A DNA stretch of 64,000 nucleotides. Origin: Zootoca vivipara (lineage: Eukaryota). The stretch lies in the NCBI RefSeq assembly GCF_963506605.1, contig NC_083288.1, positions 44,516,001 through 44,580,000 of the forward strand, given 5' to 3'. Below are positions 31,534 through 48,140 of this stretch, one piece after another. Below the pieces are notes generated by a model, which was given only the letters and a program-made list of their open reading frames with translations, had not been told where the DNA came from and did no database searches. The translations under genes and the position numbers were made by a program. Numbering within the stretch: position 1 is the stretch's first letter; each line of letters starts with the position of its first letter.

Positions 31534-32171
31534 TTCTAACCTCTTCCCCGCCTAATACCCCCTGCCCCCAGAACTGTTACTAGGTGTGGGGAAAATAGCT
31601 GCAGCATTGCTGGCTCTCGGGAGAGGATAATAAAAATGGAAATGTTAAGCTACTCTTCCATTTGTTTTACAAAATGATGTACTCAAGCCACTTCAGAAAA
31701 CTTTCAGTAATCCTTGCTGCCACCATTCTCATTTTTTGGGTGTGTGTTAATTTCTTGACTGAATAAGCGCTTTCTACAAGGAGACCGGCATTCGCTTACT
31801 TTTATGAGGGCACACTGTCAAAGTATACCCTATTATCAAGAAAATATTTGTGACTGTGAATTTACAAGACATGAAATTGTCCACAATTACCGTTTCCTTC
31901 TCAACAAGAAGCCTAGTGTGGACCCAGATGATAGTATTCCTATTTCCATCACCCGCCTTGAAGTGAGCTACAGAGCTCTGCAAATGTATTTATGAACACA
32001 CACATAACACCTTTTTAAAAGGGGACACGATTTAAATCTGGCCTCAGAGTACTGAAGGTCAGCCTTTGCAGCTAAGAACCGTAACGTCACACATTCACAC
32101 AGCCTGCATCCGAAGGCGCTCCCTCCCCACAAATAAACAAGAGGCAAGCCATCTAAAAACAATACGTCCTT

Positions 32172-32177
32172 TTTAAT
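32172..32177 (-). terminator. Probable HNRNPC proximal poly(A) signal (ATTAAA)
   Basis: Minus ...GATACCTCTTTATTGACTTAACAATTAAAAAGG followed by a GU-rich stretch. Confidence 0.6.
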
Positions 32178-32443
32178 TGTTAAGTCAATAAAGAGGTATC
32201 AAAATTAAAAGAGGAGAATTACAGGGGATTTAACTGAACTACTAGGAGATATTTCGGGGGTCTGGCCAGGGGGGGAGGAGAAAGGACAGGTGCAACAGAA
32301 GACACGCCATGAACACACGGGGCTCTGGGATGGAGGGAGGGAAGAGGGCAGTGAGGAGGCAGCCGACAAGGGGCTGGTGAGGCTCAATATCAGAAGAACG
32401 TCGGTGTTTGTTGAGGAGGAGAGAGGAGAGGTGTGTTGGGCGC

Positions 32444-38546
<6,103 letters not shown>

Positions 38547-39438
38547 TCAAGTATGCAGCAGGAACACAGGCTTGGTGCTGGAGGAGGAAGATTGTCAGAA
38601 AAGGGAAAGCAGTCACGTGGGATTTCAGCGTCTTGACACATGCGCACATGCGCACACACGCAGACAACAGAATACACACACAGCCTGGCAGGAAGCGCTT
38701 CCCCCTTTGAACGAGAAGCTATCATCCCTGAGGCATGCTGGAAAATCTCAGATCCATCCTGCAAGCAGTAAGGCATAGCAGAATTGCTAAGCAACTGCGT
38801 TTTCCTTTTTTTAAAAAATGATTGCCACTAGGCAAAGACCATTTCTCATAAGGCACTAAAGGAAGTGAGGTGGCTTTGCCATCAGCCTGCCACGGAACCA
38901 CCCACATTCTCCCACAAGAGACACCTGTGCCCATGTCAAGCATAGGCTGTGCATGATATTGTGTCTAAAGCTAGCAGTGGTATTCCAAGATGGGTGGGTC
39001 TCTTATCACGTCAACCGCTAAGACCCTTATTTCAACGACAAGCATCTTGTGGGTAGAATCAATTTTACTCCCAGCCCTCAATTTTGTTTTTAACCAGCTT
39101 TGTAAGTAACACAACTACAGAAAACCCAGCTCCAGATGAAACCGATACAAAAAGCTTAGTCACCACCTAGCGGAATTTCTAGTAGTGAGACAACTCAGAC
39201 AGTTTTCTCAACAAAACTTCTTTCAAAAACAGCAAGTGAATGCTATCTAACTTTGGACCTCCATTTATAGATGCTTAAAACAAAAGTGCCAAGACCTTGC
39301 TGTGATCTTTAGATTGTTAAACAAGGAAATGAGATTCTGGTTCGTGTCCCAGCCTCATTTCAACCACTTACATGGAGCAACAATGGAGCCTGCTCATCTA
39401 CACAAGTCTCTTGCGCACACCTAGTTAACATCATTATA

Positions 39439-39803
39439 AAAAAGGTAAAGGACCCCTGACAGTTAAGTCCAGTCACCAACGACTCTGGGGTTGCGGCGCT
39501 CATCTTGCTTTACTGGCTGAGGGAGCTGACGTTTGTCTGCAGACAGTTTTTCCGGGTCGTGTAGCTAGCATGACTAAGCCGCTTCTGGCAAAACCAGAGC
39601 AGCGCACGGAAACACCGTTTACCTTCCCACCGGAGCGGTACCTATTTATCTACTTGCACTTTGACGTGCTTTCGAACTGCTAGGTTGGCAGGAGCAGGGA
39701 CCGAGCAACGGGAGCTCACCCCGTCGCAGGGAATCGAACCGCCGACCTTCTAATCGGCAAGCTCTAGGCTCGGTGGTTTAGACCACAGCGCCACCCGCGT
39801 CCC
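39439..39803 (-). mobile_element. Sauria SINE
   Basis: Minus GGGACGCGGGTGGCGCTGTGGTCTAAACCAC...GGGGTCCTTTACCTTT; matches copies at 53.6, 55.1 and 63.9 kb. Confidence 0.88.
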
Positions 39804-40862
39804 TTTAACACAGTTATACAGTACTTAGAATATATTTTTAAAGCGACCAGTGGAAACTAACATAAATCAGTATCAGAACTTCATCTATGTACAAACTCAG
39901 AGTGGTCTTGTAATACATCTGAAAGTAGCCTGGGAAAGAAGTTTCAGCATGGAGGAACATTCAACGCTGCTCACGTTCTCTCTCACGCACACACATTCTC
40001 TTCCCCCCCCCAAGCTATTTACAAAAATCCAACATGGCAATGCCTTTTACTTTCCTGCTCCCACCTTGACACATTTAGTTCTGTTGCATGTGATACTCAA
40101 CAACCCAGACCCATGCCATCAAGTGAACAGAGTAGGGGACTGATTGTTAAGTTTCACTGCTGGAGGTCCATGTTAGATTCTCTGTCCAGCAATGAAACTC
40201 CCAGAGGCTCATGAACACTCTCTGTCTATACTTGCTTCACAGGACTGTTGCAATAACAAAATGAGAATGGAGAGCAACCTCTGGATAATGAATAGAGCCG
40301 CGGGGAAAATCCCAAGACCTTTCAAAAGATTCAACACTTTCAGTTCCAGCTAGCAGTTTTGTTTGAGATGGGCAGAGGAAAAGACTAGAACATGATTTTT
40401 GTGATCCGAAACAAGGTAAATGTGTTTGTGTGTGGTCACAGCATACACTGCAGCCAAAGGCCAGCAAACAGGATTAATAGCAGGAGGTGTATATGGGACT
40501 GACAATATGCAGCAAAGCACAGGGACAGAAATTAGATTTATGGTGCTATCACCTTTCTGTGCGACCTCAAGGTGGCATGAGTGTTTCGTTAATCATCCTC
40601 TACCGAAAACAATTCTAATGGCCAAACGCCAAGGGCAGTCAGAAGGCCCTCTGTTCAAGGCTCCGAGGAGACCCAGCTTTAGTGCTTGCAGGGCTTGATA
40701 AATCCACTTGCCTCCTCACTGTACGTGAGCGCTTTACCCCCAACTGATGACCACCCCTGCACTTCTATCACAAGTCCTGTTAGCAGGGAAGTACCCCCTT
40801 TCACCACCACCATCCCGCCCAATGCTTCAGGGGAAGAAACAAGGTGTTTTTATGTTATGTGG

Positions 40863-40949
40863 AAACAAAATAAAAAAAATTCCTTCCAGTAGCACCTTAG
40901 AGACCAACTGTAAGTTTGTCATTGGTATGAGCTTTCGTGTGCATGCACA
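40863..40949 (-). mobile_element. Penelope-like terminal fragment with truncated hammerhead
   Basis: Same family as 7675; lacks CTGANGA; flanking ATGTGG repeat. Confidence 0.65.
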
Positions 40950-41010
40950 ATGTGGTACTTGTAGTCTTATTTTTCTGGTGAATGTTGTATTTTGTATAAT
41001 GTATGCTTTT

Positions 41011-41066
41011 ATCATCTCAAGAAAGCAACAAATAAATTATCATCTCAAGAAAGCAACAAATAAATT
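41011..41066. repeat. Exact 28-bp tandem duplication
   Basis: ATCATCTCAAGAAAGCAACAAATAAATT twice. Confidence 0.9.
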
Positions 41067-42189
41067 CAGTAAGTAACAACAAAAACAACACACTCTCTTT
41101 CTCTTGCAAGTTGGGCTTTTGCGGCCCATGGCTCCCTCCTGCCAAAAACAGGGGAGAGGGATAAAGGAAGAAATGACACTATCTTTCTCTTTTCTGGAGG
41201 AATGAAGAGGCAATCTCTTTCCTGTCCAGTTCAATTCATGATGCAGGCAGCAAGGAGATGCTGACACTTTCTTTCAGAAGTCCAACTCATGGGGGACACC
41301 CCCCCCCTGAATCAGAAGAAAAGTGGTTTTGCTCCCAGGCGTTTCCACAGAAAGCATCAACTGTGCTTTGCTGTTCTCTCTTTAAAATTTCTATCTATCT
41401 ATCTATTATGGGAAGGAGGGGAGTATTAGCCCTCCTTTATTCCCTTTCCTGCATGGATAAAAGGGTCACTTCCATCCATTCCCATGGGTGGTTCTCATAC
41501 ATCAAAGCTGCAATTTTGCGGGAAATGCCAGGAGTCCCCCTCTGCTGATGCCTTCGGCAAAAACCCAACTGGAAGAAAAAACAAACATTCTCTCTCTCTC
41601 TCTCTCTCACAAGTTAGGCTTTGGCAAATTGCAGCAAGCTGAGGTGGCAAGGAATGACTAGGTTTCCTTCCACAGGTTTTTTGGAAGATGCAGAGGGGTG
41701 CTGCTTTCTTCAAAAGCCTGGTCCGCAAGCTCTCTGCACATTCTACTGCTCTCAGGGAAAGCAGAGTAGCAATGAATGGGTTTGACTCACAAACCAAAAC
41801 AAAATGTGCTGGCTGCCAATTACACGTCTGTCCATGAGTTACCAAAGCCATATTATGACCACCAAACTTGGTTCCAAAGAGAGGTCCCATGACTTTAGCT
41901 GGCACCTAGCATGCACTTCTTCCATTTGTTGCTGTCAGGATGGTGCTGTACCCAAGGCATAGAGAGTAGCTATTATTTCATTATTAACCAAAGCCTTTAT
42001 CAGCCACCACCACTACCTTTAATAATGATCATGATGTAACTTTTCACAAAGTTATTGCCTGAACTTGCTTGTTTCATTCCCGCCCCCGTTGCCTTTCTCA
42101 TGTCTATCCTAAGTCTGCTGGCAGAGACTTCTTTTAATCTCTGCAATGCATCAAGGTAACTTGGGCACTGTGACATACTCAATTATTTT

Positions 42190-42363
42190 TACTGTGTATT
42201 CCTGCGTATAAGAGTAGTGTACTTTTTAACCCAGGAAAATCTTCTCAAAAGTCGGCGGTCGTCTTATACACCGGGCCGTATTTCTTATACGGCGAGTATA
42301 TCCCAAACTCTGTATTTTGACTGGAAAAGTTGGGGGTCGTCTTATACGCCGGAATATACGGTA
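42190..42363. mobile_element. Tc1/mariner (Tc2-like) MITE
   Basis: TA-CTGTGTATTCCTGCGTATAAGA...TCTTATACGCCGGAATATACGG-TA. Confidence 0.65.
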
Positions 42364-43484
42364 TATATAACTCAACTGTTAAAAGAGATTGTTCAATCTG
42401 TTAATCAGGGTCAAGTAACGGGCAAAAGATTCCAAGTATGTGCGCATGCACTGCAATTTTTAACACAGAATTATACTCTGGGAGTGTAGTTTTGTTGCCA
42501 CTTTTTAAAAAAGAAAAGAGCCCACCACACAAAACTGGCCAGGTCACCCCCCCACCCACAAAGCCCAGTGCAACAAGATATACTGAGCTTGGTTGTTGAA
42601 CTTGGTTTTGCTCCCCAAAACAAGACAACCTCTCTCCCCCACTTCTGACCCTTAAAGTGGCTGCATGCACAGAAGGCAATGAAGACCTGAACAGTCCACT
42701 CAGATCTGCTAACAAGAGTTTTGCTTGAAGTGCAGGTGTGTACTCTTTTTCAGCAAGGCCTTTAAGAGGGATGGCTGCTGAAGCCTGGAAGTAAGCCAAC
42801 TCAGCCCCTTACCATCAGCCAAGATGGGTTTGTGTCTGCTCCATGCAAGGCTCCGCAGGTAACGGCCTCTGCCAATCCAGACTGGGCGTCCATGACGGCG
42901 TTTGTAAGGGAGGGACGGTGTGGAGGAAAAGATCAAGACGGGAACTGAAGGGTATGAGACAGGAAGGGGGGGGCAGGGTCTGACCAAGGGAAGGCTGTCA
43001 CTGCTAGCGAGCGATCAGCACCACAGACACATTGCAGCAACAGTTGAAAAATTGCACAGAAATGAAATATTAAAAAATAAAAAATAAAAATAAAAAAGTG
43101 TAGCAACTTCCTGAGATGTTCAAACAAGTTCTGGAGAGAAATTGGGTTCCGTTCTTAGCAGCCAGGCAATCAGGGAGGGAGGGAAAAAAAGAGTTAAACG
43201 CGATCAATCCACTTTTTAAAAAAATGTGTTTTAAAAACCTTGTTGTGTTTTCCCCCCCAAGGGGTTAAAAGCCCAGAGTCAGTTAGGACCACTCAGAAAA
43301 ACTCCATTTTCATCCGGTTAAAAATCAGCAGTCATTTTTTTAATCACCACCATCAGCAACACATCATCATAGTCACAGTCACCACCATCATAGTAGCAAT
43401 AATATCAATAAGTAACTAGCAACAACGATAAAAAGGAAATCAGTGGAAAGGCAGGAAAAAATTGGAAAAAATTGAATAACTTAC

Positions 43485-43510
43485 TGTAGCTGAAGATCAA
43501 AAAAATCTCG
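43485..43510 (-). other. HNRNPC: HNRNPC 26-nt 5'UTR micro-exon
   Basis: ttttttacag|CGAGATTTTTTTGATCTTCAGCTACA|gtaagt; matches the mammalian HNRNPC 5'UTR segment as I recall it. Confidence 0.85.
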
Positions 43511-46500
43511 CTGTAAAAAAACAAAAATAAAAATAGCCCAGATTAGAAAAACTGGAGGTGTAAAAAGGTCAAAGTCAGTAACGATTTTTTTTCTCTCTCT
43601 CTCTCTCTTTCATTTTTCTGTCCTTTTTCCCCCCTCTCACCCTCTTGTTCCAGCCACGGTTACTGCAGAACCAGGCAGGGGAGAGCTCCAGGCAGGAAAC
43701 AATCCAAGCCCTTTGAACACCATTTCTAAAAATGCCTGAGAGAGGTGAGCTCATGCGAGGCTAAAAGATTCCTCCTCTAACCCAGCTGCTGCAGGAAAAA
43801 AAAAAGTGATTTTTCCCCCCAAAATTAACATCTTTCAATCCAGCTCTGGCTTCACTGCAAGGCCAATGCTGGGCCGTAAAGCCACCGTTTTGATAAAAAA
43901 ACGGCTCATTCTAAGACATTGGGAGGGGTGTGCGTGCGGTGGGGCGGGTGGGGTTTTTTTTAAATAAAAAAACAAAACACGAAGCTGAGCTCCAGTGAAG
44001 GAAGGGTTGGGGGTTTTCGCCTTGCTGCCCTGTGAAAGGAGAAGGGACAGGGTGAGTCAGGGTACCCGATAAACCATTGCCCACATCTCCCAGTTCCCCC
44101 CTCCCCAGCGCAGTGAATGCCAGTCCCACGTGGCTACCCCAAGCTCACAGCTGATGTCAAAAGGCACCAGGAAGCTTGTGGTAGGAGGTGGAGTAAATTG
44201 AAGCTCATACACAGATACCCTGAAGCAAAGATGGAGGAGGAAGACTTCACAGAGATTCTGATGCATGCAACTGAAGGAGAAGCAACCTCATAAGCGTTAA
44301 GAGCATGAGGGCACTGCAACCTGATGCTCTATGCATCACTCGCCATAAGTGTAATGCATGCACCCACCCACTGGTTTTTAGCACCATGTTCAAAACTGGA
44401 AGCAATCCTAGTCCTGGGTACCAATTTTGATAAGCCATTAATTAAATTCTAGCCCAACTGCCTCCCCCCCCCACAGCATTTAAATGCCAGGAAAGTACCA
44501 GATAAACCACCCAGATTTACACTTTAAATAAATAATCCCCAGGTCTCTCAGAAGAGAAATTCATAGGCAGAACACTCCTTTTCTCTATTGTGCTATGCTA
44601 CCCCTGGAAGGATATAGGGTAAGTTTAGCGCAGTCAGCACAGGCAGGGAAAATAACAAAGGGCAGGTCATTTTGTAACTACTTGGCAAAAGTGATAAAGA
44701 AAACAGGTATAAGGTTGTTGATGCAAAACACATTTTGATGACAGCTTCAAGGAAACTGAAATGCTCTTTTGGACCAGATCTACTAACACTCTGGACAGGT
44801 ATGTGGTGGTGCTAGGAGGGAAGATTTCCAGCCACATTTCCTCAACGTTACTGGGGAAGATCAATGCATGGTCCCTGGCAGAAGAACCCAGACAATCAGT
44901 TCTACCTCTCCACCCTTTGTACAAGTTCTCAACAAATGGAAGGAAGCATGTTAAGAGAGAGAAGGCTAATGTATTCAGATTCTTCTACTAAGCATGACCC
45001 AGCATGTGGAAGACTTGGATTCAAACTCCTGGTCTTGTGCAAATCCTGTGGCAGCTCCTTACAGAACAGTTCAATCTTACACGAAGGGCTTCAGCTTTCA
45101 AAAAACGACACTGAAAGCTTGTAGCCTTTAAGGTACCATGAGACTCATGCCTCCCTCCCACCCCATTCCCGCTGCATGTAAACTAATACAACTAATTGAA
45201 TGGAATTTAAAGTAAATTGGCTATTAGTTCAGTGCTACAGGTGCCAATAAAGAGCAAGCTAGTGAGCACCCAGGACCTGTCCAGTCAATGAATGGGTTTT
45301 GGCACACCAGGGATAACTATTTTGCAATTTACACATCTGGACTTGTGCAAGGGCAATCACTGGTGCTACCCATACAGAAAGAATCCTGCCCTCACTATGT
45401 TCCCATTCCCCTCCTATGTGATTTACATATCTCTAGGCACCAGACGAAAACAGCCCAACAGCCCTCTTCTCTCAGACGTTTGGCTAATTATACTGCCTGA
45501 AATGGGGGGGGGGGGTGTTCTTGTTTGTTACTATGTTACACATTTCTGTATTTTTATACAGTATTGTGAACTGTCCTGTGATCTTTGGATGAAAGGTGGT
45601 ATAGAAATTTAATAAATAAGAATAAGAATACTGTAAACCATCACTGTAAACCTAACTTATGGCTAGGCATCAATGCCAGACCCTCACTCCTGATCTGTGC
45701 TGTGCTGCTTTTACTATCCATATTTTAACAGATTTATTTTTATATTGTTTTAATTCTATGTGTTTAATGACTTTTAAACTTCTGTGTTTTATCCATGTTG
45801 TTTTAATTTCTGTAAACCCCCTTGAGTCCTGGTTCTGTGAGAAAGGCAAGATAATATAGCAATCTTGCTGCAATCCTATCCACACTTACTTGGGAACAAG
45901 CCACATTAAGCTCAGTAATATGTACTTCCCAGAAAACCTACTTAAGATTGCAAAGCCTATTGATGTGCCACAAGGCACTCTGTTTTTGCAGCAACTGATT
46001 ATTTATTTAAAGAATGCATACCCTGCTTCTCACAATTGTATTCCTCAATGTGACAAACACGATCCCTCTGGAACTTTAATTTTTTTTAACAAAAAAAGTT
46101 CAGTATGTTCTCACCTCAAGCACGATTAAATCTTGCAAATTAATTGCATGCACGACAGAGTTTAATAGTGCCTTTTATGTTGTCTTTTCCCAGTGCGAAA
46201 AAGCTTTTAATCTCCAGGGCTTGCTTAGCAGGTTCTGGGAAGCTCTTGAGAGATCTCCCAGGAACTTGGGACGGCCCAGCAACAAGATCTCAAAAGAGCC
46301 TCCCGGAGCCTCATAAGCAAGGTGGAGAATTTAAAAGCTCTCTGCCTTGCTTGGTAGGCAAGCATGGTCACATGAGGGCAGTCTGAAGGAGGTGGTTCAG
46401 ATATGTAGTTTTCTTATACGCACCATCCCCAGATCGCAGCCCCCATGCAATATGCTACCATACTGTAGTTAAGCAACAGTCTGTATGACTTCTAATTTTT

Positions 46501-47189: not shown

Positions 47190-48140
47190 CGTATATGGCG
47201 CACCCCCGCAACTCTTCTGCCTTGTTTATTCATGAAGCAGGCCCACTGAGCTCAGAAAAGCGTGGCTAGGAGCGCAGCCTACATTAGACCACTAATCCGG
47301 ATTAGGCCAGGAGAGGAGGCGTGCGGGCGCCATGCCTTCTGCACGGGAAAGGGACACGCGGGCAGAAATGTCACTTCCTGACCCCAGCCAATAGCCTCAC
47401 GTGGGTCTTTGTCCCGCCGCCACCTAACTCTTTCAAGAGAGAGGGGAGGGGGGGAAATGAGGATTATTTCCTCCTCCTCCCCCGCCCAAGTACAATGGTC
47501 TCTTCCAGAGGCAACACATATGAATTAGCTCGGGGTGTACCATTAGGACTAAGGGGGGGAGGGGGAGAATCTCTCGGATCTTCCCATTTCCTTGCGAAGG
47601 CCAGGAAGGGAGATACCAAAGTGGCGGGGGAAGAAAACAAGAGAGAAAGGGCGGTACCATTATGACCCCCCCCCGCGGCCGAAGCGCGAAAAAGGAAAGA
47701 AACGTCACCGCTCCTTCCTTGGCCACCTGAGGCGTTAATATCCAGGCAACGAACTCACCAGGAGGCCCCAGCTCCGGAACGGCGTCGTTTTTCTTATCTA
47801 TAAGGCTTTTTATTTCCCTCCTTCTTCTTTCACATATACCTTCGCCTCATCCACGCTCCGGACTCTTCACAAAATGGCGCCCCCGCCGCCCTCTGCCTCT
47901 GCGCCGCGCAGCCCGGACGTAGCGCGGCGCGGCCCCTTTTCATGCTACGCCGCCTGTCATTGGAAGGGGGTTTTATATATGGACGTCCTTCATTGGCTAG
48001 TATTCACTCTCAATCAAATGGGGGACCAATAAGCGCCCGCTGAGGTTGTGAAGGTGAGGACGAAGCAATAAGAGGGAGAGGGAGAGATTTGCGACGTGAA
48101 AGGCGGGACTCGAGACGCGATAGGCCAGCAGGGGTGTCGC
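47190..48140 (-). promoter_or_regulatory. HNRNPC CpG-island promoter
   Basis: Dense CpG, GC boxes, CCAAT boxes (47960-48030), TATAAAA on minus at ~47971-47977. Confidence 0.8.
47759..47880 (-). other. HNRNPC: HNRNPC non-coding exon 1 (alternative donors at 47840 and 47759)
   Basis: Minus GCGCCATTTTGTGAAGAG (YY1-type start) ...GAAG|GTATAT and ...CCTG|GTGAGT; inside CpG island. Confidence 0.75.

What the first reader, a model, noticed from the sequence alone, without database searches (positions are those of the whole stretch)
42813..43130. Candidate autoregulatory HNRNPC 5'UTR cassette exon creating an overlapping out-of-frame uORF
Seen (minus): acceptor TTTCTCTCCAG at 43131, long U-tracts (UUUUUUAUUUUUAUUUUUUAUUUUUU), donor ATG|GTAAGG at 42813. 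A strong-Kozak GTCATGG (42893) opens 27 codons (MDAQSGLAEAVTCGALHGADTNPSWLM). Spliced to the first coding exon (38577), this frame stays open across the main ATG and the whole RRM exon (ORF-track frame 38299-38679) and stops at AGA TAT TAA in the next exon, ~120 aa in total. Known: hnRNP C binds U-tracts, and many hnRNPs self-regulate by unproductive splicing. Inference: inclusion would block hnRNP C translation and trigger NMD, or make an alternative-frame microprotein.
Basis: partly seen in the sequence, partly recalled or inferred. Interest (0 to 1): 0.7.

Follow-up and report, generated by a model that had tools for sequence, protein, structure and literature searches.

The report
Poison leader exon of hnRNP C
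Reads show that this lizard's hnRNP C gene is spliced at an extra donor site that places an out-of-frame start codon ahead of the real one; a likely matching human isoform is already listed as decay-sensitive, and hnRNP C likely uses it to turn down its own production by coating a uridine-rich kilobase just upstream.

Summary
The gene is HNRNPC of a lacertid lizard. Donor 42813 is real: the 42813>38577 junction appears in 3 of 4 runs laid, from two species. The AUG, 27 codons and 120-aa frame are as described. The 318-nt cassette is not established. Its acceptor (43131) was not tested, and contig lengths and word shares point to longer exons ending at this donor: 1217 nt from acceptor 44030, probably also 698 nt from the 26-nt exon's acceptor. 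These carry 10-16 further upstream AUGs and cover a uniquely U-rich kilobase (23 U5 tracts versus 34 in the other 14 kb). A likely human counterpart (736 nt) is listed as NMD-sensitive in a 2021 supplement, and autoregulation around this exon was predicted in 2007. The microprotein is not supported: the sister species has a stop at codon 98, and the human leader has another phase. Autoregulation is likely but unshown; one low-count human knockdown dataset leans that way. Earlier scan notes held nothing on this.

The parts
47759..47880 (-). Exon 1 (5' end approximate); donor CTG|GTGAGT after 47759
   Evidence: sequence; start not mapped
44030..44060 (-). Upstream acceptor: branch-like motif, C-rich tract without U5 runs, CAG; would open a 1217-nt exon at 44029
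43040..44029 (-). U-rich block, 23 tracts of 5 or more U; predicted hnRNP C platform; holds 15 upstream AUGs with short ORFs
   Evidence: binding not tested
43485..43510 (-). 26-nt exon 2 with U-rich acceptor tract and proximal donor ACA|GTAAGT
   Evidence: same length as the human alternative exon 2; its splicing not read here
42813..43130 (-).
42813..42893 (-). Strong-context AUG and 27 codons; after splicing overlaps the main AUG out of frame
   Evidence: one synonymous change in the second species
42807..42815 (-). Distal donor ATG|GTAAGG, no U5 tract within 100 nt either side
   Evidence: joint 42813>38577 in 3 of 4 runs
38303..38577 (-). First coding exon: 34-nt leader, main AUG 38543, RRM
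35999..36113 (-). Next exon (C1 donor after 36038, C2 donor after 35999); uORF stop 7 nt in

Best explanation
Position 42813 is a used distal donor of HNRNPC's 5'-UTR exon 2 that puts an out-of-frame AUG ahead of the main AUG, and it likely makes an unproductive, NMD-sensitive isoform that hnRNP C likely promotes on its own pre-mRNA as negative feedback. Steps: (1, shown) splicing 42813>38577. (2, inferred from contigs) the exon upstream is mostly long, 698 or 1217 nt, spanning the U-rich block; a 318-nt form may exist too. (3, from sequence and the 50-nt rule) scanning ribosomes meet 10-16 short uORFs that stop far upstream of junctions; the AUG at 42893 is the last gate because its frame overlaps the main AUG and stops 69-108 nt before the next junction. 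(4, inferred by likely orthology) NMD, as listed for the human 736-nt form. (5, inferred) abundant hnRNP C coats the U tracts around the 26-nt exon's proximal donor and masks it, so the U-free distal donor is chosen; scarce hnRNP C gives skipping or the 26-nt exon, both productive.
For: Joint in X24, X1, X5. Contigs starting exactly at 42813 are 1245 and 1248 nt; 44029-42813 plus a 30-nt overhang is 1247, while the 318 and 698 forms would give 348 and 728; the 30-nt overhang is seen on neighbouring contigs (records 7, 15). Word shares of 42700-43600 in 9 second-species contig sets (3 studies) are 0.61-0.62, above the 0.33-0.43 ceiling for models lacking 43131-43484. U5 enrichment p 2e-11; proximal donor has 6 U5 tracts before and 3 after within 100 nt, distal donor none. 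Human exon chr14:21262600-21263336, from the exon-2 acceptor to a distal donor, listed as NMD isoform (PMC8361881 Suppl. Table 1). 17 conserved U5 around the human 26-nt exon (PMC1877881). hnRNP C knockdown lowered use of the exon-2 acceptor from 20 of 69 to 1 of 27 reads in resting Jurkat cells (PMC7261192 Table S1).
Against: No binding or perturbation data in the lizard. The Jurkat result is weak: paper's p 0.073, tiny counts, no effect after PMA (15 of 32 against 7 of 12), and the probe cannot tell the 26-nt from the 736-nt form. The isoform is about 18-29% of coding-exon depth in X24 and X5, high for an efficient NMD target. X23 shows none at about 28x local depth, so use is sample-dependent. 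hnRNP C is mainly a repressor at U-rich acceptors, which would predict the opposite knockdown effect at acceptor 43511. Human orthology rests on exon sizes and order, not on a DNA alignment. Constraint between the two lizards is not significant against the adjacent intron (1 of 81 against 9 of 227, p 0.21). Contigs X1 and X5 are only guessed to be RNA, and contigs drop minor junctions.
Confidence: 0.6

Rival explanations
1. Same isoform, but silenced mainly by nuclear retention (a detained, hnRNP C-coated long leader), with the AUGs incidental.
For: High steady-state share (67.9 of 233.4 in X5; 14 reads at about 77x in X24); intron-retention-like architecture; FUS regulates itself this way (passage in PMC7547044).
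Against: The likely human counterpart rises on SMG6/SMG7 knockdown; the downstream intron is spliced out.
Confidence: 0.15
2. Unproductive isoform controlled by other U-binders (TIA1/TIAR, ELAVL, PTBP, RALY) or by tissue, not by hnRNP C itself.
For: Present in X24 and absent in X23 of one study; no knockdown effect in stimulated Jurkat cells; U tracts are not specific to hnRNP C (own knowledge).
Against: The densest U5 block of the window sits exactly here; resting-cell knockdown lowers exon-2 use.
Confidence: 0.15
3. One reading: a discrete 318-nt cassette (43130-42813) spliced to the 26-nt exon is the main unit, with AUG 42893 decisive.
For: A plausible AG with 12 of 18 pyrimidines; contig mean depths leave room for up to 40% (X5) or 62% (X1) of donor flux in a 318-nt form.
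Against: Contigs run unbroken past 43131; word shares need 43131-43484 in the contigs; the human NMD form has no internal intron; the tract is weaker than those at 44030, 43511 and 42945.
Confidence: 0.07
4. The isoform exists to make a 120-aa alternative-frame microprotein.
For: In this genome 0 of 19 stop-risk sites use T against 13 of 47 safe sites (p 0.007; TpA avoidance not corrected).
Against: Stop at codon 98 in the second species; 8 of 8 visible differences alter the alternative frame; frame open in 1 of 3 HNRNPC-like and 0 of 5 paralogue-like loci; no candidate among 50-160-residue proteins; human leader 36 nt.
Confidence: 0.03

Closest known systems
Human HNRNPC NMD isoform, exon chr14:21262600-21263336 (Karousis 2021, PMC8361881, Suppl. 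Table 1 row)
   Same: Between exon 1 and the first coding exon; starts at the exon-2 acceptor and ends at a distal donor; 736 nt against 698 nt here; classed as NMD-sensitive.
   Different: A table row only, no mechanism. Lizard contigs point also to a longer form from an upstream acceptor. Human leader 36 nt, lizard 34 nt, so a phase-0 uORF would not have the same frame relation.
Predicted hnRNP C autoregulation at 26-nt exon 2 (Yeo 2007, PMC1877881, section read)
   Same: Same 26-nt exon, conserved U5 tracts in flanking introns, autoregulation proposed.
   Different: It blamed a frameshift by the 26-nt exon; here that exon lies before the main AUG, and the unproductive product is the distal-donor extension with uAUGs. 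Not tested there.
AS-NMD autoregulation of hnRNP L (exon 6A), PTBP1 (exon 11), hnRNP A2/B1 and D/DL (passages in PMC7547044, PMC11288931)
   Same: RNA-binding protein, dense own-motif block, alternative splice event giving an NMD-type transcript.
   Different: Those act by a stop in the coding region or a 3'-UTR junction; this one leaves the ORF intact and poisons the 5' leader. Feedback is shown for them, not here.
ATF4-type overlapping inhibitory uORF (recalled, no call)
   Same: Out-of-frame uORF overlapping the main AUG after short upstream ORFs.
   Different: Here it is added by splicing; stress-dependent bypass is untested.

Membership tests
Autoregulatory AS-NMD event of an RNA-binding protein | Alternative splice event is used in vivo | tested here: met
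   Joint 42813>38577 in 3 of 4 runs, two species
Autoregulatory AS-NMD event of an RNA-binding protein | Translated ORF stops more than 50 nt before a junction | tested here: met
   By sequence only: 69 or 108 nt for the 120-aa frame, 62 nt in the second species, hundreds of nt for the short uORFs; translation not shown
Autoregulatory AS-NMD event of an RNA-binding protein | Isoform rises when NMD is blocked | not testable with these tools
   Reported for the likely human counterpart; no lizard data
Autoregulatory AS-NMD event of an RNA-binding protein | Cluster of the protein's own motif at the event | tested here: met
   23 U5 tracts in 1217 nt, p 2e-11; motif per PMC3629564; binding itself not tested
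Autoregulatory AS-NMD event of an RNA-binding protein | Event responds to the protein's own level in the negative-feedback direction | tested here: inconclusive
   Published RASL counts: 20 of 69 to 1 of 27 in resting, 15 of 32 to 7 of 12 in stimulated cells; probe shared by productive and unproductive forms
Autoregulatory AS-NMD event of an RNA-binding protein | Deep conservation of the element | tested here: inconclusive
   Architecture matches human by coordinates; no amniote DNA orthologue could be fetched; lizard-lizard constraint p 0.21 against flanking intron
Cassette poison exon (own acceptor and donor) | Own acceptor at 43131 joined to the upstream exon | tested here: inconclusive
   Junction not read; contigs run through the site
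Functional alternative-frame microprotein | Frame open and amino acids conserved in relatives | tested here: not met
   Nonsense change and 7 missense of 8 differences in the second species

The most novel reading that the evidence does not exclude
hnRNP C sets its own level through a conserved 5'-leader switch: tetramers wrap the U-rich kilobase, hide the micro-exon's donor and force a distal donor, so the protein's packaging activity is its own dose sensor. The product is poisoned by uAUGs rather than a coding stop. Blocking the distal donor would raise hnRNP C in haploinsufficiency.
Probability: 0.4. Interest if true: 0.65.

Novelty: new member of a known kind. Interest (0 to 1): 0.42.

Why it matters
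hnRNP C is dose-sensitive: loss of one copy causes a neurodevelopmental disorder and overexpression phenocopies loss (second-hand, review PMC11288931). None of my 10 literature searches turned up an experimental account of its autoregulation, and a 2019 review of RBP feedback does not mention it. This joins a 2007 prediction, a 2021 table row and lizard junction data into one testable switch with a defined antisense target. The class of mechanism is well known, so surprise is moderate.

Tried and rejected
No relatives in the genome collection. A 24-nt exon-2 donor motif found 0 matches in metagenome and genome contigs, so no amniote orthologue DNA was obtained. The RRM query found none in viral contigs and 10 loci in metagenomes; 8 were analysed, L010-L011 left out as weak; none aligned to the exon-2 region beyond short chance hits. 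No indexed holder is on record as RNA: no evidence either way. Alternative-frame protein search: no candidate. uORF peptide too short to search. Of 120 listed hnRNP C relatives (of 2596), 9 have N-terminal extensions, none like the uORF peptide. Rfam on 32000-43040: 0 matches. Searches by recalled human coordinates and event ids gave nothing relevant. I first thought hnRNP C would block the U-rich acceptor 43511; the knockdown counts lean the other way, so I moved the proposed target to the proximal donor, after seeing those counts. I first read the contigs as showing the 1217-nt form dominant; depth bounds allow shorter forms a large share. One search printed 128 aa through a one-base slip in my exon start; one search corrects it to 120. 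Divergence against synonymous sites (p 0.004) was discounted because it is post hoc, 6 of the 8 sites read CpG or TpG, and the intron comparison is not significant. Konig 2010, Niggl 2023 and a recalled ribosome-profiling ORF catalogue were not held; supplements of PMC3787261 and PMC13399680 were unavailable and bioRxiv supplements are closed; these may list the event.

Full report
Gene and organism. The exon 38577-38303 (minus) encodes the hnRNP C1/C2 RRM (PDB 2MXY, E 1.8e-47, one difference in 79 residues; RALY lower). The C1 and C2 donors and the next exon give the expected protein. The C-terminal exons match a cluster named for Lacerta and Podarcis, so this is a lacertid lizard.

Observation. 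All coordinates in the finding check out: AG at 43132-43131, donor after 42813, AUG at 42893, 81 nt in phase 0, a 34-nt leader before the main AUG at 38543, and a stop 7 nt into the exon starting at 36113, giving 120 aa. The Kozak match (consensus recalled) is 9 of 10; the window has 7 such matches against 7.28 expected, about 2% for a 318-nt strand. The 318-nt exon holds 4 AUGs; the first (43032) opens 5 codons.

Reads. I laid 4 of 24 listed runs on 35900-43040, so junctions upstream of 43040 were not seen directly. The joint 42813>38577 has GT..AG ends and occurs in X24 (raw RNA, 14 reads, 9 starts, all with the mate orientation of the constitutive joint), X1 (contig depth 23) and X5 (second species, 67.9). 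X23, from the same study as X24, has 0 such reads and no depth on 42831-43040, with about 28x on the start of the coding exon. Read-through of the donor into the intron is lower (4.7 and 23.9). Against coding-exon depth the isoform is about 29% in X5 and 18% in X24. X1 and X5 are guessed, not recorded, to be RNA.

Which exon ends at this donor. In both species one contig starts exactly at 42813 and runs 1245 or 1248 nt, past the end of the stretch laid. Neighbouring contigs overlap branch points by about 30 nt. It has a branch-like motif, 16 of 18 pyrimidines and no AG in the preceding 40 nt. Independently, 9 of 9 second-species contig sets hold 0.61-0.62 of sampled words of 42700-43600, whereas models lacking 43131-43484 allow at most 0.33-0.43 (about 3.5 standard errors); unspliced RNA could add to this. 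So long forms exist. They need not be all: contig mean depth (64.3, 14.9) is below donor flux (91.8, 27.7), leaving up to 40-62% for a 318-nt form or more for a 698-nt form, and contigs drop minor junctions.

The U-rich block. 44029-42813 has 23 tracts of five or more U; the other 14,096 nt of the gene have 34 (p 2e-11), and the next-best 1.2-kb window of the 64 kb has 9. All 23 lie upstream of 43040. The 26-nt exon's acceptor tract has three, its donor six before and three after within 100 nt; acceptor 44030 and donor 42813 have none nearby. hnRNP C prefers continuous U and competes with U2AF65 there (PMC3629564, passages).

Translation. Those before it open 2-59 codons and stop 200-1100 nt before the junction. 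AUG 42893 is in every form ending at this donor, and its frame overlaps the main AUG, so reinitiation cannot rescue the ORF (inference). Its stop is 69 (C1) or 108 (C2) nt before the next junction.

Conservation. In the second species 42813-43040 differs at 5 of 228 nt; AUG, context and donor are unchanged and the uORF has one synonymous change. That is not significantly below the adjacent intron (9 of 227; p 0.21). In the coding exon 8 of 9 differences were shown (2 are also in X23/X24): all silent in the main frame, all change the alternative frame, one to a stop at codon 98, 62 nt before the junction. The frame is open in 1 of 3 HNRNPC-like metagenome loci (probably fish, my reading) and 0 of 5 paralogue-like ones. 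For the microprotein, this genome avoids T at 19 of 19 stop-risk sites (p 0.007), but that does not outweigh the nonsense change. The human first coding exon is 277 nt, giving a 36-nt leader if its coding part is 241 nt as here, so phase differs. Two rabbit models carry M plus 12 residues before the usual start while other rabbit isoforms do not; that fits an alternative exon ending in ATG, in frame there, but exon structure was not seen.

Literature. Yeo 2007 (PMC1877881, section 12 read) reports 17 conserved U5 around the 26-nt alternative exon 2 and predicts autoregulation, by a frameshift. Karousis 2021 (PMC8361881; passages, section 22, one supplement row) lists an exon chr14:21262600-21263336 between exon 1 and the coding exon as the NMD isoform; its start is the exon-2 acceptor probed in Mallory 2020 (one constant offset for three sites). 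I take it as the counterpart of 43510-42813 by order and size. Mallory 2020 (PMC7261192; passages and Table S1 rows): hnRNP C knockdown moved exon-2 acceptor use from 31.5 to 6.7% in resting cells (paper p 0.073; pooled 20 of 69 against 1 of 27, p 0.006 ignoring replicate scatter) and not after PMA. Term look-ups in PMC6884704, PMC6547761, PMC7547044, PMC11288931, PMC10264242, PMC10705803, PMC11914300, PMC13399680, PMC5115870 and bioRxiv 2020.05.20.107375 (passages only) showed no account of hnRNP C self-regulation. Ten searches found none; subscription papers and several supplements were out of reach. The scan's earlier notes concern a paralogue only.

Verdict. A real, used distal donor giving an unproductive leader isoform, likely shared with human; autoregulation by hnRNP C is the best explanation (0.6) but unshown. 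New member of a known kind; interest 0.42.

Noticed in passing
window 47850-47830 (-): Exon 1 region has a 6-codon uORF; whether it lies inside the transcript depends on the unmapped start.
   Followed up: no
window 42980 and 42945 (-): Two further candidate acceptors that would give 167- and 132-nt exons with AUG 42893 as the first AUG; 167 nt is close to a human exon size I recall (168 nt, unverified). Depth in X24 runs on across both.
   Followed up: partly
P0067, P0051 (rabbit hnRNP C isoforms X3, X5): 13-residue N-terminal extension, M plus 12, absent from other rabbit isoforms; may reflect the same donor read in frame.
   Followed up: partly
window 42586-42842: The intron just past the distal donor is covered by contigs in both species (depth 4.7 and 23.9), unlike most of that intron in the second species.
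   Followed up: no
window 860-6600 and 20700-24700: Histone H2A, H2B and H4 reading frames, recognised from translation.
   Followed up: no
window 17755-15005 (-): 917-codon open frame in a CpG-rich region, unidentified.
   Followed up: no
window 53000-51957 (-) and 62069-59026 (-): A single-exon GPCR-like frame and an RTE-type LINE-like frame, named from recall of the translations.
   Followed up: no
window 39450-39800, 40860-40950, 42220-42350, 36440-36490: Intronic repeats that attract very high read depth from elsewhere in the transcriptome.
   Followed up: no
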